Assembly: GCA_029553475.1 (NCBI GenBank)
Contig: JAKPKV010000166.1
Location: forward strand, 3,520 to 67,519
Length of the DNA: 64,000 nucleotides
From: Armatimonadota bacterium
Lineage (GTDB): Bacteria > Armatimonadota > Hebobacteria > CAIYQO01
Reading direction: 5' to 3'
Under the pieces are notes generated by a model, which was not told the DNA's origin, ran no database searches, and was given only the letters and a program-made list of their open reading frames with translations. Both the position numbers and the translations under genes were made by a program. This document shows, in pieces, positions 22,507-41,945 of this stretch (its first letter is position 1; each line of letters opens with the position of its first letter).

Positions 22507-22936
22507 TGGTTAAGTATAATACTCTCCCCCGCACGCCCGGTCAAGAGGCGACAATCCGGGACAAGCGGGGAGCAGGGCATCCGTACAGTGATACAGACAC
22601 CATGAGCCGGAGAAGGTTGCGGGGGGCCCCGTCCCGGACGCGAAAATCATCAGGATATGCCGCCGGCATCGCGCGGGCCGTGTGTGCGGTCGGCGGGGCA
22701 GGCGGTGATCCCGATCGCGGCGGGACGCGCCCGCGTTGGCGAGGTGCGCGGGCGCGGGCGCGTCGAGCACGCGGACAGGCGCGGTCGCCCACCGCGTAAC
22801 TGGTCAGTCACTTTTCTCGGCGATCATGCAAGAAAGGCCTTGACGGTGGGAACAATGGGGCATATATTAAAGTCATAATTTTTATCTTTTATAAACTGCA
22901 CCGGTGACGCCGCCGTCACGGAGAGCGGAGGACGCG

Positions 22937-25900
22937 ATGCACAATCGTCGGCGAGAGAGGGATACGATTTCCACAGGCTACGGCATGGCCATGCGGGCGG
23001 GACGGGTGGGGTGGCTGCTCCTCCTCCTCTGCGCGCCCCCGCTCTGTGCCGCCGACACGACGCGGGAAGAGATTCACGGCCTGCTCACCGTGCTGCATCC
23101 CGGCGCGGGCGCCGTCCGCGAGGCGGAGATTGACCGCGGCGGCGACGACGGCCTGGTGGTCGGCTGGCGCGGCACGCTCTGGTCGCGCTGGGACAAGGGG
23201 GAGGCCCATGAGCGCCACGTGGCGCCCATCGGTGCCGGCGAGGTCATCAGCCTTACCCCGCGCACCGCGCGTCTCCGCCTGACCCTCACGCAGCCGGAAG
23301 GCGATGGGCTGGCGCGCGTCGGCGACCTGTTTTCCCTCAACGCGCGGGTGCCCGCGCTGCCGAATCGGTCGCTCCTCTGGCGGCTGGCCCGCCTGCACAT
23401 CACGCTGCTGGACGCCGAGAACGCGACGCCGTTCAACGACTACCGCGCGCTCTTTCATGACGAGACGCCGGACGCGACGGCCGCCATCTACGCGGCCATG
23501 CGCGAGGATATCGCCTGGACCGGGAGGGAATTCGCCGACGACGTGATGCCCGACCCCATCACAGGGGGACGGTATGACGGCCAGACGCTGCGCCAGGTGA
23601 TGGAAGGCGCCATGCGCGCCGATCTCGATCACTTCTTCCTCTTCGTCGCCGGGTACCCCGGAAAATACCTGGGCAAATCCTGGAAGCTGAACGAAACCTT
23701 CGCCACCTGGGTCATCAACGGCGCGCCCATCGGGCAGGAGGAGCTGCGGGGTCTGTTGCTGGCGGCGCAGACGCCGGCGGAGCGGACGGCGCTCGTCACC
23801 ACCTACCGCCAGGATATTCAGAATGGGAAGATGATCGCCGACTGGTACAGCGCCGCGCAGACGTTGGCGGCGGCAGGGCAGGCCGACGCCGCGCTCGCGC
23901 TGGCGGACGCGGCGCTGGACGCCGCCCGGCAACTGCGGCGCGCGGACGACGAAAGCTGGTGCCTGTTTGCCCGGGGCTACGTGCTGAGAGAAGCGAAGCG
24001 CTACCCGGATGCGCTGGCGGCGTTTGACACGGCGCTGGCCGCCTTCCGCGCGCGGGAGCAGGACGACGACGCGGCGAAAGGCGTCGCCTTCAGTCTGGCG
24101 CATCGCGGAGATCTCCTCGCCGCCCTCACCCGCTACCAGGAGGCGCTGCCCGTGTACGAGGAGGCGCTGAGAATCCGCCGGCAGACGCCGGCGCTGGCCG
24201 CCACGCAGGGGCACACCTGGTGGGCCATCGGGCACGCGCATTACAACCTGGGCGACTACCGGCAGGCGCTGGCGGCCTACGAGCAGGCGCTGCCGTTCAT
24301 CCGCGCCGGGCAGGATACCGTGAACCTGACGGCGCTGCTGGGCTGGATGGCGAAGGTGTATGCCCGCGTGGGCGACAACGCCGACGCCGAGCGCATGTAT
24401 ATCGAGGCGCTGGCGATCAGTCGCCGCGAGCAGGCGCGCGGCGCGGAGGCGGAGACGCTGGGCACGCTGGCCAGCCACTACTGGGGTATCGGCCGCTATG
24501 CCGATGCGCTGACCCATTACCGGCACGCCCTGGCGCTGCAGCGCGCCCTGGACGCGCCGGCCGAGATCGCCGCCACCCTCACCGGCATCGGCAAGCTGTC
24601 GTGGAACCTGGGGAATTTTCCAGAGGCGCTGGCCGCGCACACGGAGGCGCTGGCCCTGCGCCGGGCGTTGCGTGACCGCGCCGGCGAAGCGGAATCGCTG
24701 CGGGAGATCGGCGACCTGCGCCAGCACAGCGGCGAGTACCCCGCGGCGCTGGAGGCGTATGGCCGCGCGCGGGACATCGCCGTCGCGCTGGGCGACCAGC
24801 GGCTGGACGCGCACATCGCCGTGGCGATTGCCGGCATCCACCAGTATCAGAAGAAATACGCGGACGCGCTGGACGCGTACGACCGCGTGGTGACGGTCTA
24901 CCGCGGGCTGGCGATGAAAGCGGACCTGGCCGCGGCGCTCTCCACCCGGGGAGGGCTGCTGGAGCGCCGGCAACGCCCGGCGGACGCGGAACGCGATTAT
25001 CGGGAAGCGCTGGCCCTGCGCACGGCGATCGGCGCGCGGGCGGATGAAGCGGAGAGCCTGCTGGCGCTCTCCGGCCTGGCCTGGCGCCGGCAGGATTTCC
25101 CCGCGTCGCTGGCGCACCTGCGCGCGGCGCTGGAGATCGCCCGCGCCATCACGGATCGCCTGCTGGAAGCGCGCTGCACCCGGTACCTGGGATTCTATCA
25201 CGAGCAGGCGCTGGAATTTCCGCGGGCGCTGGACGCCTACACGCGCGCGCTGGCGATCTATCGCGATCCGGCGGTGGGCGACGCCACCGGCGAAATCGAG
25301 ACGCTGCTGAACTTGGGCAGCTACGCGCAGACCCTGGGCGATTTCCCGCTGGCCCAGCAGCAGTATCAGGCGGCGCTGGCGCGCGCGGAGCAGGCCACCG
25401 CGCGCCCGCAGCAATCGGGCGCGTTGAGCAGCCTCGGCTGGCTGTACCGAAGCTGGGGGCGGCTGGATGACGCGCTGGCCGCGCAGCAGGACGCGCTGGC
25501 CATCGCGGAAGCGGTGCAGGACGCTTACGCCCGCGCCGCCACCTATCACGCCATCGCCGCCCTCTATTCGGATTTCGGGCAGAATGCCCGCGCGGTGGAA
25601 TACGCCGGCAAAGCGCTGGCGCTGTACCAGGAGGAGCAGCACCGCTACGGCGAAGCGCTCATTGCGAACGCGATGGGCGTGTATTATTATCGCCAGGGCG
25701 ACTACGCCGCGTCCGCCCGCCACCTGCGCGCCGCGCTGGCGCTGGCGGAGCAACTGCAGAGCCACGCGGATATCCTCACCGCGCTCATCAACCTCGGCGA
25801 GCTGGCCATGCGCCAGGATGATTACGCCGGCGCCGCCGAATATCTGCGCCGCGCGCTGCCGCTCAGCGCAGCCTACGGCGGCGGCACCGGCGGCATTGAC

Positions 25901-27859
25901 CTCGGCATCCTGCTGGCGCGCATGCATCGTCTGCAGGCGGAGGCGGCGCCGGCGCAGGCCGCCACGCGTTATCGCGAAGCGGCAACGCACCTGCGAGACG
26001 CGTTAGCGCGCGCGCGGGAACAACAGCTGCCCGCCGCCATCATCGAGGCGCTGCTGGAAGAGGCGCGGCTGGCGGCGGCCCAGGGGCGCCGGACCGAGGC
26101 GCTGCCGCCGCTGGCCGACGCCATCCGCCTCGCCGAGGCACGGAAATTCCGGCATCAGCTCTGGGAGCTGTATTTCGAGCAGGGGCGGCGGCTGCTGGCG
26201 CTGGACCGCCTGCCGGCGGCAGAGGCGGCGCTGCGCAAGGCCATCGCCGTGCTGGATGAGCTGCAGGGCGGGGTGGCCGGCGGGGAGCAAGGCAAGGAAA
26301 CGTTCCTGCGCAGCCGCATCGCCGTGTACGAGACGATGGCGGAGATCCTCGGCGCGCGCAACGCCCAGGAGCAGGATCCCGCCGCCCGCCGCCAGCGGGC
26401 GGAAGAGGCGCTGAGCTACGTCGCGCTGGCGCGCTTCCAGGTGGTCGCCGGCACCGCCGGCGCCGTGGCGGAGACCGGCAACGCCGCGCTCGACGCCGCC
26501 CTGCGCCGCCGCGACGAGGTGGTGCTGCGCCAGGGGCAGCTCGCGAAGGAAGCGCTGGCGGCGCTGGAAGCCGGCAACACCGAGAAAGTGGAACGCCTCG
26601 ACCGCGTGCTCGCGCGCACCGAGGAAGAGCTCGCCGGCGCCTACGCCGACATCAAGGCGCAGGACGCCGACCTGGACGCCCGGCTGAAATTCGACCCCCG
26701 GCGATTGTCCGACGCGGCGCTGGACCTGCCCGCCGGCGCGGTGCTGCTGGTGCTCTTCCCCGGCCGTGACGACCTGCACCTGTGGGTCTACACGCGCGAG
26801 GGATTCACCGCGTGGCGGCAGCGCCCGGTCAGCCGCGCGGACCTGTATGGGCTGGTGAAGGCCTTTCGCGGGGGGATTGACGAGGTGATCAGCCGCGTGG
26901 AGCGCCGCGAGCGGATTGGGCGCGGCTTCGGCCCCGCCGCTGAGGCGAACGACGCCAACCCGTCCTGGTATCGCGAGAATATTGCCGCGATGCGCCGGGC
27001 GCTCGCCGCGCTGTATACCCACCTCATCGGTCCGGTGGACGCGGATCTCGCGCACGCCGGCCCGCTGATCATCCTGCCCTATGGCCAGCTCTGCTACCTG
27101 CCGTTTGAAGCGCTCATCCGCGAGCAAGACGGCGCGATGACCTTCCTCGGCCAGGAGCGCCGGGTCGTCTACCTCACCAGCGAGGACCACCTGCGGGAGA
27201 CGCTGCGCGCGCTGGCGCGGCCGCTGCCGGCGACAGAGGACGCCTGGGTGGCCTTCGCCGACCCGCGCGGACGGCTCGGCTCCTCGCTGGCGGAAGCGAC
27301 GGAGATCGCCGCCTTCTTCCCGACGCATGAGATTCACAGCAACGCCACCGGCACCGCCGGCAAGGACCAGGTGGAGGTATTGCGGGAGGATTGCACTATC
27401 CTGCATTTTGCCACCCACGGCTTCCTCAACGGCGCGCGGCCCAGTCAAACCTACCTGGAGCTGGCGGCGCCGCCGGGCGACGGCATGCTCTCCCAGGCGG
27501 AGATCTGGCCGAAGCTGAAGAACCTGTCGAAGCCGTTCAAGCAGCGGCGCCTGCGGCTGGTGGTGCTCTCCGCCTGCGAGACGGCGCGCGGGCAGGAGGC
27601 GCCGGAGGCGGAAGTGCTGGGCCTGCCCGACGCCTTCACCATGGCCGGGGTGCCGGCGGTGGTCGGCAGCCTCTGGTCCGTGTACACCTATACCACCACC
27701 GATTTCATGGTGGATTTCTATCGCCAGCTCGCGCGCGAGCAACGCGGGAAAGCCGACGCCATGCTCGAGGCGCGGCGGGCGATGATTACGCAGCATGACG
27801 GACGGTATGCCCATCCCTTCTACTGGGCGCCGTTCCTGCTCTTCGGCGATTGGAGGTAA
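22937..27859 (+). CDS. exported TPR-repeat protein with a C-terminal CHAT (caspase-fold) protease domain, ~1640 aa
   Basis: GGAGG RBS 6 nt before the ATG at 22937; N-terminal hydrophobic segment GWLLLLLCAPPLCAAD; ~20 TPR-like units (…YNLGDYRQALAAYEQAL…); CHAT catalytic dyad LHFATHGF (His) and VVLSACETARG (Cys). Confidence 0.85.
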   Translation: MHNRRRERDTISTGYGMAMRAGRVGWLLLLLCAPPLCAADTTREEIHGLLTVLHPGAGAVREAEIDRGGDDGLVVGWRGTLWSRWDKGEAHERHVAPIGAGEVISLTPRTARLRLTLTQPEGDGLARVGDLFSLNARVPALPNRSLLWRLARLHITLLDAENATPFNDYRALFHDETPDATAAIYAAMREDIAWTGREFADDVMPDPITGGRYDGQTLRQVMEGAMRADLDHFFLFVAGYPGKYLGKSWKLNETFATWVINGAPIGQEELRGLLLAAQTPAERTALVTTYRQDIQNGKMIADWYSAAQTLAAAGQADAALALADAALDAARQLRRADDESWCLFARGYVLREAKRYPDALAAFDTALAAFRAREQDDDAAKGVAFSLAHRGDLLAALTRYQEALPVYEEALRIRRQTPALAATQGHTWWAIGHAHYNLGDYRQALAAYEQALPFIRAGQDTVNLTALLGWMAKVYARVGDNADAERMYIEALAISRREQARGAEAETLGTLASHYWGIGRYADALTHYRHALALQRALDAPAEIAATLTGIGKLSWNLGNFPEALAAHTEALALRRALRDRAGEAESLREIGDLRQHSGEYPAALEAYGRARDIAVALGDQRLDAHIAVAIAGIHQYQKKYADALDAYDRVVTVYRGLAMKADLAAALSTRGGLLERRQRPADAERDYREALALRTAIGARADEAESLLALSGLAWRRQDFPASLAHLRAALEIARAITDRLLEARCTRYLGFYHEQALEFPRALDAYTRALAIYRDPAVGDATGEIETLLNLGSYAQTLGDFPLAQQQYQAALARAEQATARPQQSGALSSLGWLYRSWGRLDDALAAQQDALAIAEAVQDAYARAATYHAIAALYSDFGQNARAVEYAGKALALYQEEQHRYGEALIANAMGVYYYRQGDYAASARHLRAALALAEQLQSHADILTALINLGELAMRQDDYAGAAEYLRRALPLSAAYGGGTGGIDLGILLARMHRLQAEAAPAQAATRYREAATHLRDALARAREQQLPAAIIEALLEEARLAAAQGRRTEALPPLADAIRLAEARKFRHQLWELYFEQGRRLLALDRLPAAEAALRKAIAVLDELQGGVAGGEQGKETFLRSRIAVYETMAEILGARNAQEQDPAARRQRAEEALSYVALARFQVVAGTAGAVAETGNAALDAALRRRDEVVLRQGQLAKEALAALEAGNTEKVERLDRVLARTEEELAGAYADIKAQDADLDARLKFDPRRLSDAALDLPAGAVLLVLFPGRDDLHLWVYTREGFTAWRQRPVSRADLYGLVKAFRGGIDEVISRVERRERIGRGFGPAAEANDANPSWYRENIAAMRRALAALYTHLIGPVDADLAHAGPLIILPYGQLCYLPFEALIREQDGAMTFLGQERRVVYLTSEDHLRETLRALARPLPATEDAWVAFADPRGRLGSSLAEATEIAAFFPTHEIHSNATGTAGKDQVEVLREDCTILHFATHGFLNGARPSQTYLELAAPPGDGMLSQAEIWPKLKNLSKPFKQRRLRLVVLSACETARGQEAPEAEVLGLPDAFTMAGVPAVVGSLWSVYTYTTTDFMVDFYRQLAREQRGKADAMLEARRAMITQHDGRYAHPFYWAPFLLFGDWR

Positions 27860-27864
27860 TGGAA

Positions 27865-30591
27865 ATGAACGCACACCTGTACCCCCGCGGCGCCGCGCTG
27901 TGGCGCGGCCTGGTCGCTGGCCTGTTGGCCGGCCTTGTGCTCCTCACCGGCGCGCCGGCGCGGCTGCGGGGCGCGGACGCGCCTGTCAGCGCCGTCATCC
28001 TGCGCCAGGTGGATCCCAACGGCCCCTTCACCGCGGCGACGGTCATTCGCGACAGCGATGACGCCGTCCTCGTGGAGGTGGCGTGGGCGAAACCGGTGGC
28101 CGCCGATGCCCGCTACACCGTCCGCTGGCTCGGACCGGACGGCACGAACTATTACGAGAGCGCCGAGACCGTGAAAGCCGGCGCCGATTTCTTCTCCGTC
28201 GGCCTGCGCGTGAACGGATATCCACTGAGCCGCCTGAAAGGCCGGCATACGGTGGCCATCCTGCGCGCCGGCGAGGCGCAGCCGCTGGCGCAGCCCGTCT
28301 TCACGCTGGAGCCCGCCGCCCGCGACCCGAAGAAGCCGCGCTTCACCGGGCTGCTCGCCGCCGGCCTCGATGACGAGCTGACGCCGATGGGCACGGCGAC
28401 CAGCTTCTTCAGCGATACCGGCACGCTCTGGGTCCGGTATGCGGCGGAGGCCATCCCGGAGCGCGGGCACGCGCTCACCGCGAAGGTCTACGACGCGGAG
28501 GGCGCGCTGGTGCTGAGCGGCACCCCGATCACCACCGACGGCACGTCCGACATCTTCGGCGCCGGCTTCTACCTGGCCGGGCGCGCCTGGGCGAAGGATG
28601 GCGGCAAATTCACGCTGCGCGTCTTTTGGGATGAGGATCCCGACGCCGTGGTGAGCCTGCCCTTCACCGTGACGACCGCCAACCGGTATGCCCTGCTCAT
28701 CGGCATCGCCGATTACCCGGGCGAGGACAACGACCTGCCCGGCTGCGACCTGGACGTCGCGGCGGTGCGGGACATGCTCGTGGGCGCCTACGGCGTTGAC
28801 GAGAAACACATCACCACGCTGCTGAATCTGGACGCCACGAAGAAGAATATCGTGAACGCGATTACCGCGCTGGCGGCGAAGGCGAAGAAGGACGACGCCG
28901 TCTATATCCACTACTCCGGTCACGGCGGGCAGGTGCCCGACCTGGACGGCGACGAGGAGGACGGCTGGGACGAGGCGCTGGTGCCCGCTGAGCCGGTGGC
29001 CGCCATGGCCACCACCGAGGCGGATATCGCCCGCTACCTGACGGATGACGAGATCGCGGCGCTGCTGCGACAGTTCGTGACGAACAACGTCACCGTCGTC
29101 TTCGATTCCTGCCATTCCGGCACGGCGGTGCGCGCCATCGGGCCGGATGCCCTCACCCCGCCGGCGGCGCTGCGCCGCACGCGGGCGCTGAACACCGAAT
29201 TCAGCCGCGAGCTGATTCGCCGGGCGGAGGATGCCCGCCAGGCGCCGCGCGGCGATTCTGATCCCGCCGGCCTGGACATCGGCAAGCGCTACGTGTTCCT
29301 GTCCGCCGCCCGGCCGTGGGAGCTGGCCTCCGGCGACGACGACGGCGGCTTCTTCACCATGGCGCTGGTCCGCGCGCTGACCTACGCCGACGGCCGGAGC
29401 TGGGAGCAGCTGATGACCGACGTGCGGAAGGAAGTGATGGCGATCAACTTCTCGCAGAACCCTGCGGCCGAAGGCGCGGCACGCCGCCTGCCCTTCTCGC
29501 TGGCGGAGGCGGCGGAGGACGCCCCGTTCGTGCGTCCCACGCTGGCGGTGGCCGGCGCGGCGGAAACGGGGCAGGAGCAGCCCACGCGGCTGGCCGCCGG
29601 CAGCGCCGGCAAGCACCTGGCGCTCATTGAAGGCCAGAGCACGGTTTACCTGGAGCAGATCGGCGCGCTGTACGACGTCTATCCCGCCGGCGCCACGCCG
29701 GCGGCGAAAGCCAAAGGCCGCGTGCGCATCACCGGCGACCGCCAGGTGGCGGCGATCCGCAACAAGAAAGGCGAGGTGGTCTTCGAGGAGCGCTACACGG
29801 CCGGCGAGCTCCTCGCCGGCACCGTGAGCCGCGGCGACCGGCTGGTGGCCGTGTCGGTGCCGGCGCCGGCGGCCAGCCCGAAGGTCGGCTTCTTCATCGG
29901 CAAGGACAGCCTGGACGTCGAGCGCAAGACCGCGCAGACGATCAGCGAGACGCTGCGGCGCGATCCGGCCATCCGCATCATGGACCGCGGCGCCTTCGCC
30001 GACATGGATTACGTCGTCGAGACGCGCCTGCGGAACACGGTGCTGACGGCCATCATCTGGTCGCCGGGCGGCTGGCTGATGGCGGACTTCACCGGCGCCG
30101 AGCGCGAGCTGGGCGAGAAGGTGAAGGCGTTCATCGCCGACCGGCATCAGCAGTACGCGCGCTTCATCCGGGTGAGCAACCCCGGCGCGGCCTACGCCCT
30201 GCGCGCCGACGTGGCGGGCGGCGACCTGCCCCGGAAACGCGGCGAGACGGTGACGATCACCGTCACCGGCGGCGCGCCGGGCTACCTGACGGCGCTGGCC
30301 GCGCCGGCCTTTGGCGCGCCGCGGCTCATCGGCGCCTCGGCGTCCGCCATCCCCGCGGGCCGGGCGCACACCTTCGCGGTGACGCTGCCGGATACGCCGG
30401 GGCGTGTGCCGGTGAAGATCATCAGCACCGCGCGCCCGCTGGACGGCGCGGCGATTGACAGGGCCGCACCGGCCGGGCGCACCGACGCTTTCCTCGCCGC
30501 CCTGCGCGGCGCGGTCGGCGCCGGGCTGGCGCCCAATCACCTGCCCACCGCCGACTGGGCGGATGCCATCGTCTGGATAGACGTCCGGTAA
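27865..30591 (+). CDS. exported peptidase C14 (caspase/metacaspase-like) domain protein with large flanking beta-rich domains, ~908 aa
   Basis: Caspase catalytic dyad YIHYSGHGG (His) and VVFDSCHSGT (Cys) in RYALLIGIADYPGEDNDLPGCDLD...; N-terminal hydrophobic segment LVAGLLAGLVLLTGAPA; start overlaps or abuts the stop of the CHAT gene (TAATGGAAATG). Confidence 0.85.
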   Translation: MNAHLYPRGAALWRGLVAGLLAGLVLLTGAPARLRGADAPVSAVILRQVDPNGPFTAATVIRDSDDAVLVEVAWAKPVAADARYTVRWLGPDGTNYYESAETVKAGADFFSVGLRVNGYPLSRLKGRHTVAILRAGEAQPLAQPVFTLEPAARDPKKPRFTGLLAAGLDDELTPMGTATSFFSDTGTLWVRYAAEAIPERGHALTAKVYDAEGALVLSGTPITTDGTSDIFGAGFYLAGRAWAKDGGKFTLRVFWDEDPDAVVSLPFTVTTANRYALLIGIADYPGEDNDLPGCDLDVAAVRDMLVGAYGVDEKHITTLLNLDATKKNIVNAITALAAKAKKDDAVYIHYSGHGGQVPDLDGDEEDGWDEALVPAEPVAAMATTEADIARYLTDDEIAALLRQFVTNNVTVVFDSCHSGTAVRAIGPDALTPPAALRRTRALNTEFSRELIRRAEDARQAPRGDSDPAGLDIGKRYVFLSAARPWELASGDDDGGFFTMALVRALTYADGRSWEQLMTDVRKEVMAINFSQNPAAEGAARRLPFSLAEAAEDAPFVRPTLAVAGAAETGQEQPTRLAAGSAGKHLALIEGQSTVYLEQIGALYDVYPAGATPAAKAKGRVRITGDRQVAAIRNKKGEVVFEERYTAGELLAGTVSRGDRLVAVSVPAPAASPKVGFFIGKDSLDVERKTAQTISETLRRDPAIRIMDRGAFADMDYVVETRLRNTVLTAIIWSPGGWLMADFTGAERELGEKVKAFIADRHQQYARFIRVSNPGAAYALRADVAGGDLPRKRGETVTITVTGGAPGYLTALAAPAFGAPRLIGASASAIPAGRAHTFAVTLPDTPGRVPVKIISTARPLDGAAIDRAAPAGRTDAFLAALRGAVGAGLAPNHLPTADWADAIVWIDVR

Positions 30592-30614
30592 GCGGGACGC
30601 GAAAGCGGGCGGGC

Positions 30615-30648
30615 GAGCGTCCCCCGGATGTGCATCCGGGGGACGCTC
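30615..30648 (+). terminator. strong GC-rich hairpin immediately downstream of the caspase gene (candidate intrinsic terminator, no U-tract)
   Basis: gagcgtcccccggatg tg catccgggggacgctc: 16-bp perfect stem. Confidence 0.5.
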
Positions 30649-30650
30649 CG

Positions 30651-30760
30651 CCCACCACTGGGGCCGCGGCGTTGTACTCCGCATGCATTTCTACACAGGT
30701 CTATCAGATAATCCATGTGCAGATGCGTGCGGAGTGCAACTCCGCGGCCCCGGTGGTGGC
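30651..30760. repeat. ~110-bp palindromic element: ~36-bp imperfect inverted repeat arms, ~38-nt AT-richer spacer
   Basis: cccaccactggggccgcggcgttgtactccgcatgc ... gcgtgcggagtgcaactccgcggccccggtggtggcg; the arm motif GTGCAACTCCGCGGCCCC also occurs at 3493-3510. Confidence 0.75.
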
Positions 30761-34400: not shown

Positions 34401-36413
34401 TTACCAGCGAGCGGCGTTGATGGCCTCCTGGGCGTCGGGGTATTTCCCGGCGGTGGTGAAGGAGCGGTAATATTCGTAGGCGGCGCCGGTCCAGCGGTAG
34501 AAGCGGAACTGGTAACGGGCGTCAGGGTCGGCGGGGGTGGCGTCGCCAGCGCGGCCGGCGGTGATGATCTCCAGGCCGGGGGCGGCGCGGTCGGCGTCGT
34601 CGAAGAGCCAGGCGCCTTTCGCCGCGTGGGCGAAGGGCAGGCGGCTGATGAGGCGCAGTTGCGCGGTGCCCGGCCAGGCAAAGAGGAACAGCGCTTCCTC
34701 GCCGGTGCGGGCGGCGAGCACGACGTAGAGCTCCAGCACGCCGTCGCCGTTCACGTCGCGGATGCCGAAACTGCCCAGCGGCGCGGGGATGTCCGGCGTG
34801 GCGCCGGCCAGCCCGGTCCAGCGGAAGGCGGTCTCGTTGGGGACGCGCTCGTCAAAGGTGAGGGTATCGAGCAGCTCGGCGGGGATGACGCCGTGCTCAT
34901 CCGGCGCGGGGAAGATGCGCAGCATCGGCGGCAGGTCGGTGCCGCCGTCCGCGACGGCCACCGCCACCGTTTCCGCCGTCCCGTCGCCGTTCAGGTCGGC
35001 CGTCCACGCGCCGACGCACTGATAGCCCTTCGAGAAGAGGCGGGGAAATCTCGTCTCCGGGCGGGCGATCATCTCCATGGGCACCGCCGGGCGCGGGGTG
35101 TCCGTCGCCGCCCCGACCGGGATGACCACGCGGAAACCGACGTTGGCATACATCTCGCCGGGCCGCATGGTATCCAGCCGGTAGGCGCAGCGGAACTTGT
35201 AGCCGTGCGTATCCATCGGGTCGAAGCAGGAGTTGCCGCGCACGGCGTACTCCTTCAGCGCCGCCGGCCCGCGCGGGTTGGCCCAGCGGCTGCTGCCGGG
35301 ATCATCGGGGACCAGCCAGTCGGCGCAGAGCTCCGCCATGTTGCCGGCCATGTCCAGTAGGCCGTACGGGCTGGCGCCCCCCGGAAAACTCCCCACCGGC
35401 TTGCGGGCATCAATGCCCGGCTTGCCCATGAAGGGCGCGTAGCGCGTCTCGTCGCGGCGATTGCCCCACGGATACTCGCGCCCGTCCGTGCCGCGCGCCG
35501 CTTTCTCCCATTCCGCCTCGGTGGGCAGGCGCCCGCCCGCCCAGGCGGCGAAGGCGGCGGCTTCTTCCGGCGTCATGCCGCTGACCGGGTAGTCGTCCTT
35601 CCAGCCCTCCACGATTTTGCCGTCGTCGCGCAGCACCTGCGGGGGCACCGGCATCGGCGTTTTCGTCGCCGCGCAGAACTTTGTATACTGCCCGGCGGTC
35701 ACCTCGTACTTTGAAATCCAGTAGCCGTCCAGGTGCACCATGCGCGCGTGATGCTCCAGCGGGTTGCCCGTCTCCTCGATCTGGAAGGCGGTGCTCTGCA
35801 GCGTCACCGCTTTATCCGCGCCGTCGCCGGTGGGGGTGAGCACCGTCGTCTCCAGCGGCACGGGGCGGGCGCGTTTCAGGCCGCTGCTGCCCATCTGGAA
35901 CGCGCCGGCGGGCACGAAGACCATGAGGCCGCCGTCGGGGCTGTTCAGGCGCAGCGTGGGCAGCGCGAAATCCGGTTTCGGCGGCCCGGCGCGGAGGAGG
36001 GTGCGCATGGTGGCGGCGTCGCGGCTGAGCTGCACGTTGAGCAGCCCGGCCAGCCCGCGCGCGATCACGTAGCCGACGGCGTCATATTTCAGCATCGGCT
36101 TGCCCAGGTCCACCGTCTTGATCACCGGCGCACTCTTCGGGCCGCTGCCGTCCGCCGTCGGCTGCCAGGCCGGATCGAGGATCTCCGCTTTCGCGCCCAT
36201 CATGGTGAAGCGGATCACCGTGCGCGGCACGGCGGGGAGGGTGAGGGTGAGGGTATTCGTCGGCGGGTCGAAGACCAGCTCGCCCCCCGCCCACTCCGCG
36301 GCGGCGCGCAACGGCACGTAGGTGGTATCTCCCACCAGCAGCGCGAAGGGCTCGTCGGCGAGGAGGGCGGCGGCGCAGGCCAGCGCGCAGACCAACATGG
36401 CGCGGCGAAACAT
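34401..36413 (-). CDS. exported multidomain FGE-sulfatase (SUMF1-like) domain protein
   Basis: ATG at 36411-36413 preceded by GGAAAGGA; signal peptide MFRRAMLVCALACAAALLA; central FGE domain ...GYWISKYEVTAGQYTKF...WEKAARG...RGNSCFD; the 360 codons upstream in the track ORF are not coding. Confidence 0.8.
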   Translation of the reverse strand: MFRRAMLVCALACAAALLADEPFALLVGDTTYVPLRAAAEWAGGELVFDPPTNTLTLTLPAVPRTVIRFTMMGAKAEILDPAWQPTADGSGPKSAPVIKTVDLGKPMLKYDAVGYVIARGLAGLLNVQLSRDAATMRTLLRAGPPKPDFALPTLRLNSPDGGLMVFVPAGAFQMGSSGLKRARPVPLETTVLTPTGDGADKAVTLQSTAFQIEETGNPLEHHARMVHLDGYWISKYEVTAGQYTKFCAATKTPMPVPPQVLRDDGKIVEGWKDDYPVSGMTPEEAAAFAAWAGGRLPTEAEWEKAARGTDGREYPWGNRRDETRYAPFMGKPGIDARKPVGSFPGGASPYGLLDMAGNMAELCADWLVPDDPGSSRWANPRGPAALKEYAVRGNSCFDPMDTHGYKFRCAYRLDTMRPGEMYANVGFRVVIPVGAATDTPRPAVPMEMIARPETRFPRLFSKGYQCVGAWTADLNGDGTAETVAVAVADGGTDLPPMLRIFPAPDEHGVIPAELLDTLTFDERVPNETAFRWTGLAGATPDIPAPLGSFGIRDVNGDGVLELYVVLAARTGEEALFLFAWPGTAQLRLISRLPFAHAAKGAWLFDDADRAAPGLEIITAGRAGDATPADPDARYQFRFYRWTGAAYEYYRSFTTAGKYPDAQEAINAARW

Positions 36414-36842
36414 GGCGGCGATCCTTTCCACGGCGTCCGGGGAGCGGCGTCCACGACAGTACCCGAGTCTGCCTCCATTATATCGGGAAGCCGGGTCTAT
36501 ATCCATAGACACCGGCCGCGGCGGAGAGTTTTGCCGCGGCCCGGCGCGGGCGCCCGGCGAGAATGTCGGCGCATGAGCCCATCCTCGTCCAGCCTCGCTG
36601 GATGGCGCCCGGGAAAATCCGCACATCTTCGCGCCGCTGTCACGCTTTTGCCGCATGGCGCGCCTGCCGGGGAAAAGTGACGGCGAACCGGCACGTCGCG
36701 CGCTCACCCGGTGTGCGAGACTGGGCTGGAACATCGGGCATCCCTCGCGCCCCGTGTCATGTACCCGTACCGCAGCGGTGGCATGGCCAGCGGGTGAGCC
36801 GGTGGATTCGACGATACCCTTGGGGAAAAGGAGGATCTCCCG

Positions 36843-38444
36843 ATGAAAAACGGGTTGATGGGTCTGCTCGTCGGCCTTGCGCTGGTAGTGAGTGCCAGCG
36901 CGATGGCCGCGCCGCAACCCCTCACGAATGCCGCCCTCGACCAGGTGGTCGCGGGGGAGGCGACGGCCAGCGGACCACAGGCCGTCGCCGTGGACGGTGA
37001 TGACAGCGCGAACGTCGCGGCGGGCGCGCTGGCGGCCGGCGCGGCGCAAGCGGTGAACGGCGCCGGCAATATCACGACGCAGAATCCGACGAACAGCGCG
37101 GTGTCGTCCACGGACGGCGTCAGCCTGAACGCGGAGAACGGCGGCATCGCGGCGGCGCTGGCGGCGGATGCGCTGGCGGCGGCGTCCAACAATCCGGACG
37201 AGAGCGCCGTGGCGCTCGGCCATGACAACCTCGCGCGGAATTTCGCGGACAACGACGATGTCGCCAATGCCTCGGGGGCCGCGCTGGCCATCGCGGAAGC
37301 GGATGACGCCGCCAACGCGTTCGGCGCGAACAGCCAGGCGTTCGACGGCAACGATGACCTCGCGGTGGCCGACAACGGCACGGCGATCGGGGCGGCCGGG
37401 GACGCGGCGCTGAATCTCGGCCATGCCAACGTCGCCATCGAGGCGCCGGACAACGCGACGCTGGCGCAGGGCCAGGGCGAAGCGGTGCAAAACACGGGCG
37501 CGCTAGCCTGGGCCGATACCGGCGTGGCGGTGGCCAATCCGTCCGACCTGGCGCTGGCGGCCGGCAGCGGCATCGCCGCCGTCGGCAGCGACTTCGCTCT
37601 CGCGTCGGACGACGCGGCGGCGGCGAACGCCAACGATGACGCCGCGCTGGCGCTGGGCGTCGGCAATATCGCGCTCGATGCGCCGGACGACGTGGCCGTG
37701 AATACCGGCAGCGGCGTGGCCGCCGTGGACAGTGCCCTCGTCCTCGCGGAAGAGGGCGGCATCGCCGCCGCGGATAGCGACGAGGCGGCCAACGCCCTCG
37801 GCCATGGGAACACGGCCATCAATGTCGCCGATAACGCGGATAGCGCCATTGCCGTGTACGGCGGCAACGCGGGCCGCGCCAACGGCAACGGCCAGGCGGC
37901 GGCCGGCGACGGCAACACGCAGCAGTATCAGGACGCCACCAATGCCATCGCGGCGATGGATGACGCGGTGGTCCACGTCACCGCGTCCGCCATTGACGAC
38001 ACCACGGTGGAACGCGGCTCGGCCGCGATCATCGGCGAGAGCAACCAGGTGGCGGCGCTGGCGGGTGAGACGGAGATTGATGTCGAGACCGATGGCGGCG
38101 ACCTGGAGATTGACGGCGTGGTGGCCAAATCCGCGGCAATCGTGTGCGCCTTCAACGAGGACGACCGGACGATCACGGTGGAGGTGGAGATTGGCGACTC
38201 CTTCAACGTCGAGAACAACGTGCTGCGCATCTGCGGGATGGATCAGGCGTCCGGCATCGTGCTGGCGAGCTCGCTGAACGACCAGCAGACCGGGGCGAAC
38301 CTGAACGTGACCAGCGCCACCAGCGTGGTGCCCACGGTGACGGGGACGAGCGTGCCGGCGACGGCGGTGGGCACGGCGACGGCCGACACCGCGCTGAACC
38401 AGTTGGTGAGCAACGGGTCTGCGCTGGTGAATATCCAGTTCTGA
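36843..38444 (+). CDS. secreted Ala/Asp/Asn/Gly-rich low-complexity repeat protein, paralog 1 (candidate fibre/amyloid subunit)
   Basis: AAGGAGGATCTCCCGATG start context; signal peptide ...SASAMA; then APQPLTNAALDQVVAG; degenerate ~20-30 aa repeats (DAALNLGHANVAIEAPDNATLAQ...); C-terminal ...ALVNIQF. Confidence 0.8.
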   Translation: MKNGLMGLLVGLALVVSASAMAAPQPLTNAALDQVVAGEATASGPQAVAVDGDDSANVAAGALAAGAAQAVNGAGNITTQNPTNSAVSSTDGVSLNAENGGIAAALAADALAAASNNPDESAVALGHDNLARNFADNDDVANASGAALAIAEADDAANAFGANSQAFDGNDDLAVADNGTAIGAAGDAALNLGHANVAIEAPDNATLAQGQGEAVQNTGALAWADTGVAVANPSDLALAAGSGIAAVGSDFALASDDAAAANANDDAALALGVGNIALDAPDDVAVNTGSGVAAVDSALVLAEEGGIAAADSDEAANALGHGNTAINVADNADSAIAVYGGNAGRANGNGQAAAGDGNTQQYQDATNAIAAMDDAVVHVTASAIDDTTVERGSAAIIGESNQVAALAGETEIDVETDGGDLEIDGVVAKSAAIVCAFNEDDRTITVEVEIGDSFNVENNVLRICGMDQASGIVLASSLNDQQTGANLNVTSATSVVPTVTGTSVPATAVGTATADTALNQLVSNGSALVNIQF

Positions 38445-40452: not shown

Positions 40453-40522
40453 GTCATCTGGTCGGACCATCCGGGGAGCCGGCGGGAGGCCGGCTCCCCA
40501 CCGAGGAAGGAAGGAGGGAACG

Positions 40523-41059
40523 ATGGGCAGGAACGTGAGCCGTATCCTCGGCTGCGCGGGCATCGCGCTGATGATGAGCCTGATGGCGGTGGCCGGCCCT
40601 CGTCCGATGAGCGATGATCAGCTCGACGCGGTCTACGCCGCCGGGTTCGATGTCGAGATCAGGATGGATATGGATCTCGCGGCCAGCAACCCGGACGCGC
40701 TGGTGCTGCAGGGCGGCGACCCGGAGATGCTGGCGCAACTCTTCACCAGCGGCATCCCGCTGCTGCGGAGCGCCGGCACCGGGCGCAATACCGCGCTGAT
40801 AGATCCATCCGGCGCCTATATGCCCAATCTGCAAAATCTGACGGTGAACAACATCAACATCACCGGCGAGGCGCTGAAAGGGGCGACCACCCTGCTGAAC
40901 ATCTTCGCGTTGGATGGCGACGTGGCGGTGGGGCTGAACCTGAACGTGATCGTGAATCCAGTCGGCGGCACCTGGAACATCAATCAGACGAACATGAACT
41001 GGGCGAATCTGCTCGTTTCGGATGCGCTCAAGACACTGGGCGCGGGCGGCGCGTGGTAA
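40523..41059 (+). CDS. small secreted protein sharing the N-terminal leader-like motif of the repeat proteins (candidate nucleator/accessory subunit)
   Basis: Hydrophobic N-terminus ...ALMMSLMAVAG; then PRPMSDDQLDAVYAAG; Asn/Leu/Gly-rich beta-like C-terminal half. Confidence 0.65.
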   Translation: MGRNVSRILGCAGIALMMSLMAVAGPRPMSDDQLDAVYAAGFDVEIRMDMDLAASNPDALVLQGGDPEMLAQLFTSGIPLLRSAGTGRNTALIDPSGAYMPNLQNLTVNNINITGEALKGATTLLNIFALDGDVAVGLNLNVIVNPVGGTWNINQTNMNWANLLVSDALKTLGAGGAW

Positions 41060-41089
41060 ACTGAACGGCGAAGCGATGTGAGGACGTTC

Positions 41090-41809
41090 ATGCGGCTGAC
41101 CGGTACCTGGACGATACTCCTGGGCCTGGCGCTCTGGGCCCTGGCGGGCGCCTCACCCGTGTGCGCGGGTGAGGCGCGCATTCCCGTCGGGCCGGCGGCG
41201 GCGCTGACGCTGTCCGTCGCGGTGGACAGCATCAAAGAGATGCGCGAGGCGGGCATCACCCTGCAGCAGCTCGATTACAGCTGCGGCTCGGCGGCGCTGG
41301 CCACGCTGTTCACCGCGTACCTGGGTCAGCCGTATACCGAGGCCGATATCATCAACTTCATCGTCAAATCCACGGATTTGCAGAAGGTGGCGGCGCGGCG
41401 GGGCTTCTCGCTGCTCGACCTGAAGCGCTTCGCGGAGGCGCACGGGGTGCAGGCGGAGGGGTATCAACTGGATACTCCCGGCCTGCTGGAGCTGAACTGC
41501 CCGGTGCTCGTGCCGCTGTATCGTCCGGACACGAAGATGCGGCACTTCGTCATCTTCCGCGGGGCGCTGGGCGACCGCGTCTTCCTCGCCGACCCGGCGG
41601 TGGGCCGGCAGACGATGTTCCGCGCGGAGTTCGAGCGCCTGTGGAATCCGCGCGTGGGCATGGTCTTCACCCACGCGGGCGCGCCGCCCACGGAGGAGAC
41701 GCTGCTCGGCGTGAAGCCGGGCGACGAGATCTACATCGGCGCGGAGGCGCTGCGCGCGCTGGTGATGCGCACCGCGCTGCAGTTTATCCATCAGGCGCAT
41801 GAATACTGA
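41090..41809 (+). CDS. stand-alone exported peptidase C39-like cysteine protease
   Basis: Signal peptide MRLTGTWTILLGLALWALAGASPVCAG; C39 catalytic motifs QQLDYSCGSAALATL (Cys) and HFVIFRGALGDRVFLADP (His...Asp). Confidence 0.8.
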   Translation: MRLTGTWTILLGLALWALAGASPVCAGEARIPVGPAAALTLSVAVDSIKEMREAGITLQQLDYSCGSAALATLFTAYLGQPYTEADIINFIVKSTDLQKVAARRGFSLLDLKRFAEAHGVQAEGYQLDTPGLLELNCPVLVPLYRPDTKMRHFVIFRGALGDRVFLADPAVGRQTMFRAEFERLWNPRVGMVFTHAGAPPTEETLLGVKPGDEIYIGAEALRALVMRTALQFIHQAHEY

Positions 41810-41940: not shown

Positions 41941-41945
41941 GCGGC

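What the first reader, a model, noticed from the sequence alone, without database searches (positions are those of the whole stretch)
22937..30591. Operon of two exported caspase-fold proteases: a 1640-aa TPR-CHAT protein translationally coupled to a 908-aa C14 caspase-domain protein
The first gene encodes ~20 TPR units followed by a CHAT domain with an intact His/Cys dyad (FATHGF / LSACETARG). Its stop overlaps the start region of a second gene encoding a canonical caspase/metacaspase core (HYSGHGG / FDSCHSG) flanked by large beta-rich domains. Both carry N-terminal hydrophobic export or anchor segments. Most TPR-CHAT proteins in bacteria have no demonstrated function, and in the known cases CHAT or caspase-like proteases act as effector or regulatory proteases in conflict or cell-death systems. 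A tandem CHAT plus caspase pair predicted to act outside the cytoplasm is unusual. It could represent a protease cascade (one activating the other), an envelope-stress/cell-death module, or a surface-protein processing system. It lies between the T2SS cluster and palindromic repeat elements.
Basis: partly seen in the sequence, partly recalled or inferred. Interest (0 to 1): 0.7.

Follow-up and report, generated by a model that had tools for sequence, protein, structure and literature searches.

The report
Exported CHAT and metacaspase protease pair
Two neighbouring genes encode a giant TPR-CHAT protease and a metacaspase-like protease, both apparently exported from the cytoplasm. The pair recurs in several bacterial phyla and probably acts as a sensor-plus-executioner protease module outside the cytoplasm, but no one has tested it.

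Summary
Gene 1 (22937-27859, 1640 aa) reads signal peptide, a ~250-aa domain with no Pfam family ('Ndom'), ~20 TPRs, then CHAT. Gene 2 (27859-30591) reads signal peptide, two Ig/MG-like beta-sandwiches, a metacaspase-like C14 domain, then a DUF4384-type C-terminal module. Its ATG overlaps gene 1's stop (TAATG), with GGAGG just upstream.

- **Catalytic dyads:** both His/Cys dyads are invariant in orthologues.
- **Pair conservation:** the pair is conserved in 17 of 20 informative loci (Armatimonadota, Planctomycetota). Flanking genes differ every time, so the T2SS and MarR neighbours are incidental.
- **Wider pattern:** signal-peptide-bearing CHAT and C14 genes lie close together in many other bacteria, including gut Bacteroidales.
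- **Ndom elsewhere:** it also sits at the extracytoplasmic C-terminus of NTPase-TM-TPR proteins. In 4 of 4 loci examined, a TIR gene lies immediately upstream of these.

Best reading (about 0.4): an extracytoplasmic sensor-protease (Ndom+TPR+CHAT) works with, and probably activates, a zymogen-like metacaspase. This would parallel the cytoplasmic SAVED-CHAT to PCaspase cascade and DdvA's periplasmic TPR-CHAT. Export, cleavage, trigger and output are all inferred. I rate it a new variant of a known kind, of moderate to high interest.

The parts
22840..22868 (+). Sigma-70-like promoter candidate (TTGACG, 17 nt spacer, TATATT). It sits beside an AT-rich stretch (about 22860-22900) unusual for a ~70% GC window, upstream of gene 1.
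   Evidence: 10 of 12 consensus matches; 3 sites in the region against 0.7 expected. Sequence. This is a consensus match only, and function is not shown.
22927..22931 (+). Shine-Dalgarno GGAGG, 5 nt before the ATG of gene 1
   Evidence: sequence
22937..27859 (+). Gene 1: exported Ndom-TPR-CHAT protease, 1640 aa (alternative start 22985 gives 1624 aa)
22937..23053 (+). Gene 1 signal peptide region (…MAMRAGRVGWLLLLLCAPPLCA|AD…)
   Evidence: Sequence. The heuristic is positive here and negative for 13 cytoplasmic proteins of the window. Orthologues carry comparable N-termini. Cleavage is not shown.
23054..23791 (+). 'Ndom' (aa ~40-285): a beta-barrel plus a helical subdomain, with the motif YPGKYLGxxWKxxETFATWVINGAP. 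No Pfam or NCBIfam family matches it.
23954..26236 (+). TPR array, about 20 repeats (aa ~340-1100)
   Evidence: (10 TPR_12 stretches, TPR_MalT)
26237..26986 (+). Conserved 'mid' region preceding the Pfam CHAT match (aa 1101-1350). It is 45-65% identical in orthologues.
26996..27850 (+). CHAT protease domain (aa 1354-1638). Catalytic His1494 is at 27416-27418 and Cys1547 at 27575-27577.
   Evidence: PF12770, E 2e-54. Both residues are invariant in 10 orthologues. Codons checked.
27853..27861 (+). Gene junction: GGAGG, then TAATG (the stop of gene 1 overlaps the start of gene 2 by one base)
   Evidence: sequence
27859..30591 (+). Gene 2: exported metacaspase-like C14 protein, 910 aa (908 aa from 27865). 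Residue numbers below count from 27865.
27865..27975 (+). Gene 2 signal peptide region (aa 1-37; pLDDT below 50 in the model)
   Evidence: orthologue N-termini
27988..28674 (+). Two Ig/macroglobulin-like beta-sandwich domains (aa 42-150 and 160-270). The first is missing in the ~770-aa homologues, and both are missing in the ~700-aa Armatimonadota forms.
28684..29484 (+). Metacaspase-like C14 domain (aa 274-540): p20, a disordered Arg/Lys-rich linker (aa ~418-472) and a p10-like part. His353 is at 28921-28923 and Cys416 at 29110-29112. It carries the DLDGDEEDGWDE acidic motif.
29527..30588 (+). C-terminal three-domain module (beta-barrel, alpha/beta domain, beta-sandwich). It is homologous to the C-terminal region of the widespread SP-C14-DUF4384 proteins.
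   Evidence: AF2; hhalign probability 98.2%, E 3e-14 over 283 columns
30604..30759 (.). Two long GC-rich hairpins (arms of 27 nt and 44 nt) between the convergent gene 2 and the MscS/cNMP channel gene. They probably act as a bidirectional terminator region.
   Evidence: no Rfam match

Best explanation
This is a self-contained, two-gene protease module that works outside the cytoplasm.

- **Step 1, export (inferred from sequence).** Both proteins leave the cytoplasm through Sec signal peptides.
- **Step 2, sensing (inferred from domain architecture).** Gene 1 is the sensing and regulatory protease. Its Ndom and ~20-TPR superhelix bind a periplasmic or envelope cue, and hold the C-terminal CHAT protease in check. 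Separase, Craspase and DdvA, the other TPR-CHAT proteins studied, are regulated this way.
- **Step 3, cascade (inferred by analogy with SAVED-CHAT and PCaspase).** Activated CHAT cleaves its dedicated partner, gene 2. The most likely site is the disordered, basic p20-p10 linker, which resembles the autoinhibitory linker of type II metacaspases.
- **Step 4, execution (inferred from homology).** The freed metacaspase-like enzyme has an acidic S1-pocket signature (invariant Asp414 two residues before the catalytic Cys; the homologous acidic pocket gives metacaspases their Arg/Lys preference) and a Ca-site-like acidic motif. It then cuts envelope or invader proteins after Arg/Lys.
- **Step 5, biological role (inferred).** The likely role is envelope surveillance, defence or cell death, rather than housekeeping. 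The same Ndom+TPR module forms the extracytoplasmic end of TIR-linked transmembrane STAND NTPases.

Shown here: the gene structure, the domains, the intact dyads, the conserved pairing and the domain-sharing pattern.

Not shown: export, cleavage, the trigger and the output.
For: - **Pairing.** An Ndom-TPR-CHAT gene lies directly upstream, on the same strand, of the cognate C14 gene in 17 of 20 informative loci, with unrelated flanks. Pairwise identities of the two proteins track each other (r = 0.96).
- **Active sites.** Both dyads are invariant.
- **Export.** SP-like N-termini occur in 85% of Ndom-TPR-CHAT representatives and 88% of the partner family. They occur in 0 of 13 cytoplasmic window proteins and 0 of 14 STAND N-termini.
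- **Ndom lies outside the membrane.** In NTPase-type carriers it follows a single TM helix and TPRs.
- **Conflict-system link.** In 4 of 4 loci examined, a cytoplasmic TIR_2 protein gene lies immediately upstream of these NTPase genes.
- **Interchangeable heads.** Ndom+TPR is fused either to CHAT or to C14 heads.
- **Distant relatives.** Distant Ndom-TPR-CHAT genes sit beside other exported C14 genes: L104 has SP-WD40-C14 and L107 has SP-C14.
- **Zymogen-like fold.** The metacaspase fold carries a low-confidence basic linker.
- **Precedents.** SAVED-CHAT cleaves and activates PCaspase (bioRxiv 10.1101/2023.06.23.546230). DdvA has a periplasmic TPR-CHAT proposed to sense a phage-associated signal, and its operon also holds a C25-type peptidase (PMC11506125).
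Against: - No experiment exists on any member of the family.
- No cleavage motif was identified.
- Neither the direction of a cascade nor its existence is shown.
- The window is ordinary chromosomal context (T2SS, SMC, glutamate synthase), not a defence island. PADLOC matches only generic TPR and caspase models.
- Three cognate C14 genes have no CHAT gene within 10 kb (L005/6, L010, L016). One distant Ndom-TPR-CHAT gene has no C14 neighbour (L102).
- Signal peptides were judged with a home-made heuristic and by eye, not with SignalP. An uncleaved signal anchor cannot be excluded for gene 2.
- The link to conflict systems is guilt by association through one shared domain.
Confidence: 0.4

Rival explanations
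1. The two are co-expressed but independent exported proteases with a housekeeping or nutritional role. They might degrade extracellular or periplasmic proteins, or mature and attach surface proteins, as the exported clan-CD enzymes do (gingipains, PorU, legumain-type and GPI8-type transpeptidases). In this reading the TPR and beta-sandwich domains recruit substrates, and there is no activation cascade.
For: - Gene 2 belongs to the very large SP-C14-DUF4384 class, many members of which have no CHAT neighbour.
- The window context is housekeeping.
- Some Bacteroidales clusters add a trypsin-like protease, which would fit a degradative toolkit.
Against: - A 1640-aa protein with ~20 TPRs and a single protease head is an odd design for a bulk degradative enzyme.
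- The strict one-to-one pairing and co-divergence (r = 0.96) point to a specific partnership.
- The Ndom+TPR module is shared with TIR-linked STAND NTPases, which are not nutritional.
- The distribution is patchy and cassette-like, with different flanks in every genome.
Confidence: 0.25
2. The pair is a signalling module. Like DdvA, the periplasmic TPR-CHAT, with or through the C14 partner, would act as a site-1-type protease. It would clip the periplasmic domain of a transmembrane regulator (an anti-sigma factor or similar), passing an outside signal to gene expression rather than killing or degrading.
For: - DdvA has a periplasmic TPR-CHAT proposed to trigger regulated intramembrane proteolysis (PMC11506125).
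- In L003/L004, an ECF sigma factor gene and a FecR-like gene lie just upstream of the pair on the same strand.
- Ndom+TPR is used by transmembrane NTPases that must signal across the membrane.
Against: - Gene 1 has no anti-sigma domain and no TM helix beyond the signal peptide.
- No sigma/anti-sigma pair or other membrane regulator is conserved next to the pair. It occurs in only 1 of about 17 paired loci, and here the neighbour is a cytoplasmic MarR.
- This reading does not explain the need for a second, broad-type metacaspase.
Confidence: 0.15
3. The pair is cargo of the adjacent type II secretion system. The proteins would be folded in the periplasm and then pushed outside the cell as secreted effectors.
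For: A complete-looking T2SS cluster (secretin to GspE) lies within 1 kb upstream on the opposite strand. Both proteins carry Sec signal peptides, which T2SS substrates need.
Against: None of the other loci that carry the pair has T2SS genes in its flanks. A MarR gene and a 430-bp intergenic region separate the two units. T2SS substrates carry no recognisable motif, so nothing positive supports the link.
Confidence: 0.08
4. The N-terminal hydrophobic segments are not export signals. The pair would then be a cytoplasmic conflict system of the Craspase or SAVED-CHAT/PCaspase type.
For: All experimentally characterised CHAT-plus-caspase or TPR-CHAT effector systems except DdvA are cytoplasmic.
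Against: - SP-like N-termini are conserved across divergent orthologues of both proteins, although the sequences themselves are not.
- Ndom lies beyond a TM helix in NTPase-type carriers.
- There is no SAVED domain, gRAMP/Cas7-11, CD-NTase or CRISPR array in the window.
- The beta-sandwich, MG-like and DUF4384-type domains are typical of extracytoplasmic proteins.
Confidence: 0.03

Closest known systems
SAVED-CHAT / PCaspase cascade of the Haliangium ochraceum type III-B CRISPR-associated CBASS module (Steens et al., bioRxiv 10.1101/2023.06.23.546230)
   Same: A CHAT protease and a caspase-family protease are encoded together. There, the CHAT enzyme specifically cleaves and activates the caspase, which then cuts many substrates. 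That is the proposed logic here.
   Different: That system is cytoplasmic and is triggered by cA3 binding to a SAVED domain. It is linked to CRISPR/CBASS genes, a sigma factor and an inhibitor. The pair here carries signal peptides and uses Ndom+TPR in place of SAVED. It has no CRISPR/CBASS neighbours, and its partner is a large multi-domain metacaspase-like protein. No biochemistry exists for it.
[quoted passage not shown]
   Different: DdvA is membrane-anchored, with a cytoplasmic zinc anti-sigma domain bound to an ECF sigma factor. It is about 1000 aa and lacks Ndom. Gene 1 is a soluble exported protein of 1640 aa with Ndom, and no sigma/anti-sigma partner is conserved beside it.
Craspase (type III-E gRAMP/Cas7-11 with TPR-CHAT/Csx29) and separase
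   Same: The TPR-then-CHAT architecture, in which the helical repeat region allosterically controls a caspase-fold protease.
   Different: These are cytoplasmic or nuclear, and are controlled by RNA-guided or securin-based mechanisms. Sequence similarity to the gene 1 CHAT region is insignificant (E 0.28).
Type II metacaspases (AtMC4, AtMC9), Yca1, and the bacterial homologue GSU0716
   Different: Gene 2 has a signal peptide, two N-terminal beta-sandwiches and a 350-aa C-terminal module. Ca dependence, Arg/Lys specificity and linker autoprocessing are untested.
Exported bacterial 'caspase family proteins' of the SP-C14-DUF4384 type, and prokaryotic metacaspases/orthocaspases with N-terminal TM or SP segments (PMC3501461)
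   Same: Gene 2 shares the C14 domain and the whole C-terminal module with them (hhalign 98.2%). [quoted passage not shown]
   Different: Gene 2 adds the MG-like domains and has a dedicated Ndom-TPR-CHAT partner. None of this class has a known function.
TIR + nSTAND1/AAA_35 NTPase two-gene systems that carry Ndom
   Same: They share the Ndom+TPR module (E down to 1e-111), predicted to face the periplasm.
   Different: Their effector is a cytoplasmic TIR protein, and the NTPase spans the membrane. No protease is involved. These are not in the window, and they are themselves uncharacterised.

Membership tests
CHAT domain proteases (Pfam PF12770; clan CD) | Significant match to the CHAT profile above the curated cut-off | tested here: met
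   185.4 bits against a cut-off of 24, E 2e-54, covering profile positions 2-289 of 289
CHAT domain proteases (Pfam PF12770; clan CD) | Catalytic His and Cys present and conserved | tested here: met
   H1494 and C1547 are invariant in 10 orthologues; codons verified
CHAT domain proteases (Pfam PF12770; clan CD) | Proteolytic activity | not testable with these tools
   Needs purified protein
Peptidase C14, metacaspase-like branch | Match to the Peptidase_C14 profile above the cut-off, and a caspase-hemoglobinase fold | tested here: met
Peptidase C14, metacaspase-like branch | His/Cys dyad in the HYSGHG and DSCHSG motifs | tested here: met
   H353 and C416 are invariant in 24 homologues
Peptidase C14, metacaspase-like branch | Acidic S1 pocket giving Arg/Lys specificity, and Ca2+ dependence | tested here: inconclusive
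   D414 and E486 are invariant, and the DLDGDEEDGWDE motif is conserved. Equivalence to the metacaspase pocket and Ca-site residues was judged from the alignment only, and activity is untested.
SAVED-CHAT / PCaspase cascade | CHAT and caspase-family genes encoded together | tested here: met
   Adjacent, overlapping by 1 nt; conserved in 17 of 20 loci
SAVED-CHAT / PCaspase cascade | SAVED sensor domain on the CHAT protein, and association with cOA-producing CRISPR/CBASS genes | tested here: not met
   There is no SAVED domain; Ndom+TPR takes its place. The window holds no cas or CD-NTase genes.
SAVED-CHAT / PCaspase cascade | CHAT cleaves and activates the caspase | not testable with these tools
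   Biochemistry is required
Craspase (type III-E) | TPR-CHAT encoded next to gRAMP/Cas7-11 and a CRISPR array | tested here: not met
   No such genes or repeats near the pair
DdvA-type anti-sigma factors | Periplasmic TPR-CHAT | tested here: inconclusive
   A signal peptide is predicted from sequence and conserved in orthologues. Localisation has not been measured.
DdvA-type anti-sigma factors | N-terminal zinc anti-sigma domain, a TM helix, and an adjacent ECF sigma gene | tested here: not met
   The N-terminus is only a signal peptide followed by Ndom. The neighbour is MarR. An ECF sigma gene lies upstream only in L003/4.
EACC1-associated caspases (NCBIfam NF047832) | Score above the curated cut-off | tested here: not met
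   49.8 bits against a cut-off of 140
Known anti-phage defence systems (PADLOC-DB v2) | Match to a system-specific model | tested here: not met
   Only the generic 'TPR' and 'caspase' models match

The most novel reading that the evidence does not exclude
The pair would be one form of an undescribed extracytoplasmic immune or cell-death pathway. A previously unnamed sensor module (Ndom plus TPRs) would survey the periplasm for invaders or envelope damage. In different lineages it would be wired to different outputs:

- a caspase-type proteolytic cascade acting in the periplasm (CHAT to metacaspase), as in this window;
- a C14 head fused directly to the sensor;
- a transmembrane STAND NTPase that passes the signal to a cytoplasmic TIR effector.

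This would amount to a 'periplasmic apoptosome-like' system, present from Armatimonadota to gut Bacteroidales.
Probability: 0.25. Interest if true: 0.85.

Novelty: new variant of a known kind. Interest (0 to 1): 0.62.

Why it matters
Bacterial caspase-fold proteases have recently been shown to run real proteolytic cascades in immunity (Craspase, SAVED-CHAT to PCaspase). Every proven case acts in the cytoplasm, and the only periplasmic TPR-CHAT studied (DdvA) is an anti-sigma factor.

A conserved pair of active-looking CHAT and metacaspase enzymes, both signal-peptide-bearing, would move this biology into the cell envelope. It would give a handle on two large sets of proteins that are currently annotated only as 'CHAT domain-containing protein' and 'caspase family protein'. 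Some of these are in human gut Bacteroidales.

The unnamed Ndom has at least 644 representative clusters. It links these proteases to TIR-STAND systems, which suggests a common extracytoplasmic sensing device whose ligand could be looked for directly.

Tried and rejected
- **Word-indexed search with Ndom alone.** It returned only 2 proteins and missed even the identical protein, so that search was largely wasted. The exhaustive profile search replaced it.
- **Full-length gene 1 search.** It was swamped by generic TPR proteins and recovered only 3 orthologues. The other orthologues had to be taken from loci.
- **PDB sequence search with the mid+CHAT region.** Nothing significant.
- **PADLOC and NCBIfam.** Only generic or sub-threshold matches.
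- **Rfam.** No RNA family anywhere in the window.
- **'Rosetta-stone' idea.** I considered whether the Ndom-TPR-C14-C14 proteins (e.g. P0327) fuse the two partners, and rejected it. By eye, the first C14-like region lacks the catalytic His (…YYAGYAS…). These therefore look like a pseudo-C14 plus an active C14 head that replaces mid+CHAT, not CHAT plus C14. That reading is by eye and was not rigorously aligned.
- **Ndom as a homotypic adaptor.** The idea was that Ndom recruits exported proteases to the STAND NTPases, in the manner of an effector-associated domain. Nothing supports it: no locus among the 21 metagenome loci or the 4 NTPase loci holds both kinds of Ndom gene. It is not excluded for genes in trans.
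- **T2SS and MarR as functional partners.** Rejected, because neither recurs in any other locus.
- **Conserved third gene.** None was found beside the cognate pair.
Full report
**1. What is in the sequence**

The window is about 70% GC. Their third-position GC is 0.89 and 0.92, as in the other genes of the window.

Gene 1 runs from 22937 to 27859. Its ATG is preceded by GGAGG at a spacing of 5 nt. A second in-frame ATG at 22985 gives the 1624-aa product that JGI calls, while NCBI calls the 1640-aa form. Gene 2 starts at an ATG (27859) that shares one base with the TAA of gene 1, with GGAGG at 27853-27857.

A promoter-like TTGACG-17-TATATT lies at 22840-22868, beside a conspicuously AT-rich stretch. 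Two long hairpins (30604-30759) separate gene 2 from a convergent MscS/cNMP channel gene. The unit therefore looks like a two-gene operon.

**2. Domains of gene 1**

Pfam finds ten TPR_12 stretches (about 20 TPRs) and a full-length CHAT domain at aa 1354-1638, with E 2e-54. FATHGF (His1494) and LSACETAR (Cys1547) are present, and both residues are invariant in ten orthologues.

The first ~40 residues form a signal-peptide-like segment (…RAGRVGWLLLLLCAPPLCA|AD). Residues ~40-285 match no Pfam or NCBIfam family, even at E<=1. I call this region Ndom.

- An AlphaFold model of aa 36-360, built from only five sequences, is nevertheless confident (pLDDT 86.6, pTM 0.78). It shows a six-stranded beta-barrel followed by a helical subdomain that carries the motif YPGKYLGxxWKxxETFATWVINGAP.
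- One member of the alignment has a faint FlgT_C match (E 0.058).

**3. Domains of gene 2**

Pfam finds Peptidase_C14 at aa 276-538. The closest solved relatives by sequence are metacaspases: Yca1 at E 2e-21, then AtMC4 and GSU0716.

A 24-sequence alignment shows that His353, Cys416, Asp414, Glu486 and the acidic motif PDLDGDEEDGWDE are invariant or nearly so. The AlphaFold model (pLDDT 82.7) has these parts:

| Residues | Feature |
|---|---|
| 1-37 | disordered signal peptide |
| 42-150, 160-270 | two beta-sandwiches |
| 274-540 | protease domain |
| 560-666 | beta-barrel |
| 673-770 | alpha/beta domain |
| 779-907 | beta-sandwich |

The only low-confidence stretches inside the protease domain are aa 418-472. 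This basic p20-p10 linker reads …AVRAIGPDALTPPAALRRTRALNTEFSRELIRRAEDARQAPRG…. It sits where type II metacaspases carry their autoinhibitory, cleavable linker. That comparison rests on my knowledge of AtMC4 and was not tested here.

The C-terminal module is homologous to the C-terminal region of the widespread ~690-aa SP-C14-DUF4384 proteins (hhalign probability 98.2%, E 3e-14).

**4. Are the proteins exported?**

No SignalP was available, so I used a simple rule: a 10-residue uncharged hydrophobic window in the first 45-60 residues, preceded by Lys or Arg.

| Set tested | Positive |
|---|---|
| Gene 1 and gene 2 | both |
| Clearly cytoplasmic proteins of the window | 0 of 13 |
| STAND NTPase N-termini | 0 of 14 |
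| Ndom-TPR-CHAT representatives | 52 of 61 |
| Ndom-TPR-C14 proteins | 21 of 22 |
| C14 partner family | 21 of 24 |

By eye, the orthologue N-termini have the usual positively charged, hydrophobic and AxA-like layout, although their sequences are unrelated. Export is therefore well supported by sequence but not demonstrated. For gene 2 an uncleaved anchor remains possible.

**5. Is the pairing conserved?**

The C14 protein has about 24 full-length homologue clusters. I looked at the flanks of these and of further relatives found in genome and metagenome collections.

An Ndom-TPR-CHAT gene lies directly upstream on the same strand in the following 17 loci:
- the window;
- the P0002/P0122 contig;
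- L001/2, L003/4, L007 and L008;
- L009, which has two tandem C14 genes;
- the P0011/P0123 contig;
- L011, L012, L013 and L014, the last again with two C14 genes;
- L091, L093, L094, L095 and L096.

It is absent within 10 kb in L005/6, L010 and L016. L015 is cut by the contig end.

The flanking genes are different in every locus, so the T2SS cluster and MarR of this window are incidental. Pairwise identities of the CHAT and C14 orthologues are tightly correlated (r = 0.96, 45 pairs). That fits co-inheritance as a unit, although shared phylogeny alone could produce it.

Near-identical proteins are labelled Armatimonadota MAGs, and more distant pairs come from Planctomycetota MAGs. Public annotation reads only 'CHAT domain-containing protein' and 'caspase family protein'.

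**6. The pairing is a wider theme**

The genome scan also returned 73 non-cognate loci, each centred on a related C14 domain.
- 29 have a CHAT ORF within 10 kb.
- In 8 of those the CHAT ORF is directly adjacent on the same strand.
- In 23 of the 29, both proteins have SP-like N-termini.

They come from gut and rumen Bacteroidales (Prevotella, Segatella copri, Bacteroides), Cyanobacteriota, Acidobacteriota, Nitrospirales and others. Pfam confirmed one example, L039. It encodes a MORN-trypsin-like protease, a small TPR protein, a 789-aa TPR-CHAT and a 297-aa C14 protein in a row.

I did find no paper that describes such exported pairs in the searchable library. That library holds open-access papers only.

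**7. Ndom points to sensing in conflict systems**

An exhaustive profile search with Ndom found 644 representative proteins at E<=1e-3, of which 140 are at E<=1e-30. I classified the best 150 with my own HMMs, a hydrophobicity scan and Pfam spot checks. They fall into three main architectures, plus fragments:
- SP-Ndom-TPR-mid-CHAT, the largest group (61 by the length-filtered count);
- SP-Ndom-TPR-C14, often with a second, probably inactive C14-like region (22 by the same count);
- nSTAND1 or AAA_35 NTPase, one TM helix at aa ~380-525, coiled coil and TPRs, then Ndom at the extreme C-terminus (about 17).

In the third class the NTPase must be cytoplasmic, so Ndom lies outside the membrane. 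This independently agrees with the signal peptides of the protease classes.

I examined the loci of four such NTPase genes. In every one, a cytoplasmic TIR_2 protein gene lies immediately upstream: L112, L113 and L114, and in L115 a TIR_2-TIR_2-AAA_35 protein. TIR-plus-STAND gene pairs are a recognised design of bacterial conflict systems; that statement rests on my own knowledge. In STAND proteins the C-terminal repeat region is the sensor (PMC10907252).

More distant Ndom-TPR-CHAT genes also sit beside exported C14 genes of other architectures. L104 has SP-WD40-C14 downstream, and L107/108 have SP-C14 upstream. L102 has none.

**8. Mechanism**

The best-supported reading has gene 1 as an extracytoplasmic sensor-protease and gene 2 as its partner or executioner. 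Two experimental precedents frame it.
- In Myxococcus xanthus, the anti-sigma factor DdvA carries a periplasmic TPR-CHAT with a resting His/Cys dyad. It is proposed to sense a phage-associated protein signal, and its operon also encodes a C25-type peptidase.

By analogy, Ndom+TPR would bind a cue, CHAT would be released, and the linker of the metacaspase-like zymogen would be cut. The metacaspase would then cleave envelope or invader proteins after basic residues.

Every step after 'the genes are paired, look active and look exported' is inference. I put this reading at about 0.4. The rivals are:

| Rival reading | Confidence |
|---|---|
| Independent degradative or maturation proteases | 0.25 |
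| DdvA-like site-1 signalling protease | 0.15 |
| T2SS cargo | 0.08 |
| Cytoplasmic system | 0.03 |

**9. Against a defence role**

The window is ordinary chromosome. It carries T2SS, SMC, glutamate synthase and riboflavin synthase genes, and no CRISPR, CBASS or STAND genes. No further Ndom, CHAT or C14 copy is present. PADLOC has no specific model for the pair. The defence link rests on one shared domain.

**10. Verdict**

The pair is a member of a sizeable, uncharacterised class of signal-peptide-bearing CHAT-plus-C14 modules.

The cognate family here is distinguished by Ndom, which has no Pfam family, on the CHAT protein. It is further distinguished by the MG-like and DUF4384-type domains on the metacaspase-like partner.

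Relative to what is known (SAVED-CHAT/PCaspase, DdvA, metacaspases) it is a new variant of a known kind. Interest is moderate to high, because it makes 'caspase-type cascades outside the cytoplasm' and 'what does Ndom sense?' directly testable.

Noticed in passing
L112 8484-14263; L113 5262-11924; L114 298-6410; L115 5967-12017: A conserved two-gene unit: a cytoplasmic TIR_2 protein gene lies immediately upstream of an nSTAND1 (or AAA_35) NTPase-TM-coiled coil/TPR-Ndom gene, in 4 of 4 loci examined. I did not find this system described. L112 and L113 also carry a small Peptidase_S8 gene and several ~55-98-aa ORFs nearby.
   Followed up: partly
L039 3931-10858 (Bacteroidaceae MAG); similar clusters in L044, L055, L060, L069, L077 and the Segatella copri locus L056: Gut and rumen Bacteroidales carry clusters of exported proteases. 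L039 has a MORN-repeat trypsin-like peptidase, a small TPR protein, SP-TPR-CHAT (~800-1100 aa) and a minimal SP-C14 protein (~300 aa). Some loci have two CHAT or two C14 genes.
   Followed up: partly
L003/L004 1167-4805: In one orthologous locus, an ECF sigma factor gene, a 207-aa ORF, a FecR-like (STN/FecR_C, faint) 510-aa ORF and a 250-aa ORF lie directly upstream of the CHAT-C14 pair on the same strand. This recalls the DdvS/DdvA arrangement. It was not seen in the other loci.
   Followed up: no
L009 7819-12331 and L014 422-5274: The C14 partner is tandemly duplicated behind a single CHAT gene, and both copies keep the His/Cys dyad. L009 also has a bacterial alpha-2-macroglobulin-type gene (MG2/A2M/TED) about 4 kb downstream on the other strand.
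   Followed up: no
P0334 (1048 aa; not in the window): This protein consists of five tandem copies of only the helical subdomain of Ndom, behind an acidic and lysine-rich N-terminal region. The helical part can therefore exist without the barrel.
   Followed up: no
window 30604-30759: Two overlapping long hairpins lie in the convergent intergenic region after gene 2: 27-nt arms at 81% complementarity, and 44-nt arms at 84% with a 20-nt loop. There is no T-tract and no Rfam match. The 17-mer of the second arm is not significantly repeated elsewhere in the window (4 hits with up to 3 mismatches against 1.5 expected).
   Followed up: partly
window 22860-22900: A ~40-nt AT-rich stretch (gcatatattaaagtcataatttttatcttttataaactgc) in a ~70% GC genome, overlapping the -10 of the promoter-like site upstream of gene 1. 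It lies 430 bp into the intergenic region shared with the divergent MarR gene.
   Followed up: no
window 4874-5839 (-) and 34401-37490 (-): Two FGE-sulfatase-domain proteins. One is a 321-aa protein with an N-terminal zinc ribbon. The other is a 1029-aa protein with FGE-sulfatase and FG-GAP matches and a ~520-aa N-terminal region with no Pfam match. FGE-sulfatase domains are often fused to caspases elsewhere (PMC3501461), but no C14 was detected here.
   Followed up: no
window 38782-43037 (+): A same-strand run of ORFs without Pfam matches (556 aa and 178 aa), followed by a Peptidase_C39-like protein (243 aa) and a MetA-pathway/outer-membrane-like protein (363 aa).
   Followed up: no
window 48992-52690 (+): A 1232-aa ORF with gene-like codon bias (GC3 0.84) and no Pfam match at E<=1e-3.
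   Followed up: no
window 46915-48126 (-): A prepilin-type N-methylation motif plus a DUF1559 (SBP_bac_10) protein. This family is typical of Planctomycetota-like genomes, yet near-identical relatives of the pair are labelled Armatimonadota.
   Followed up: no
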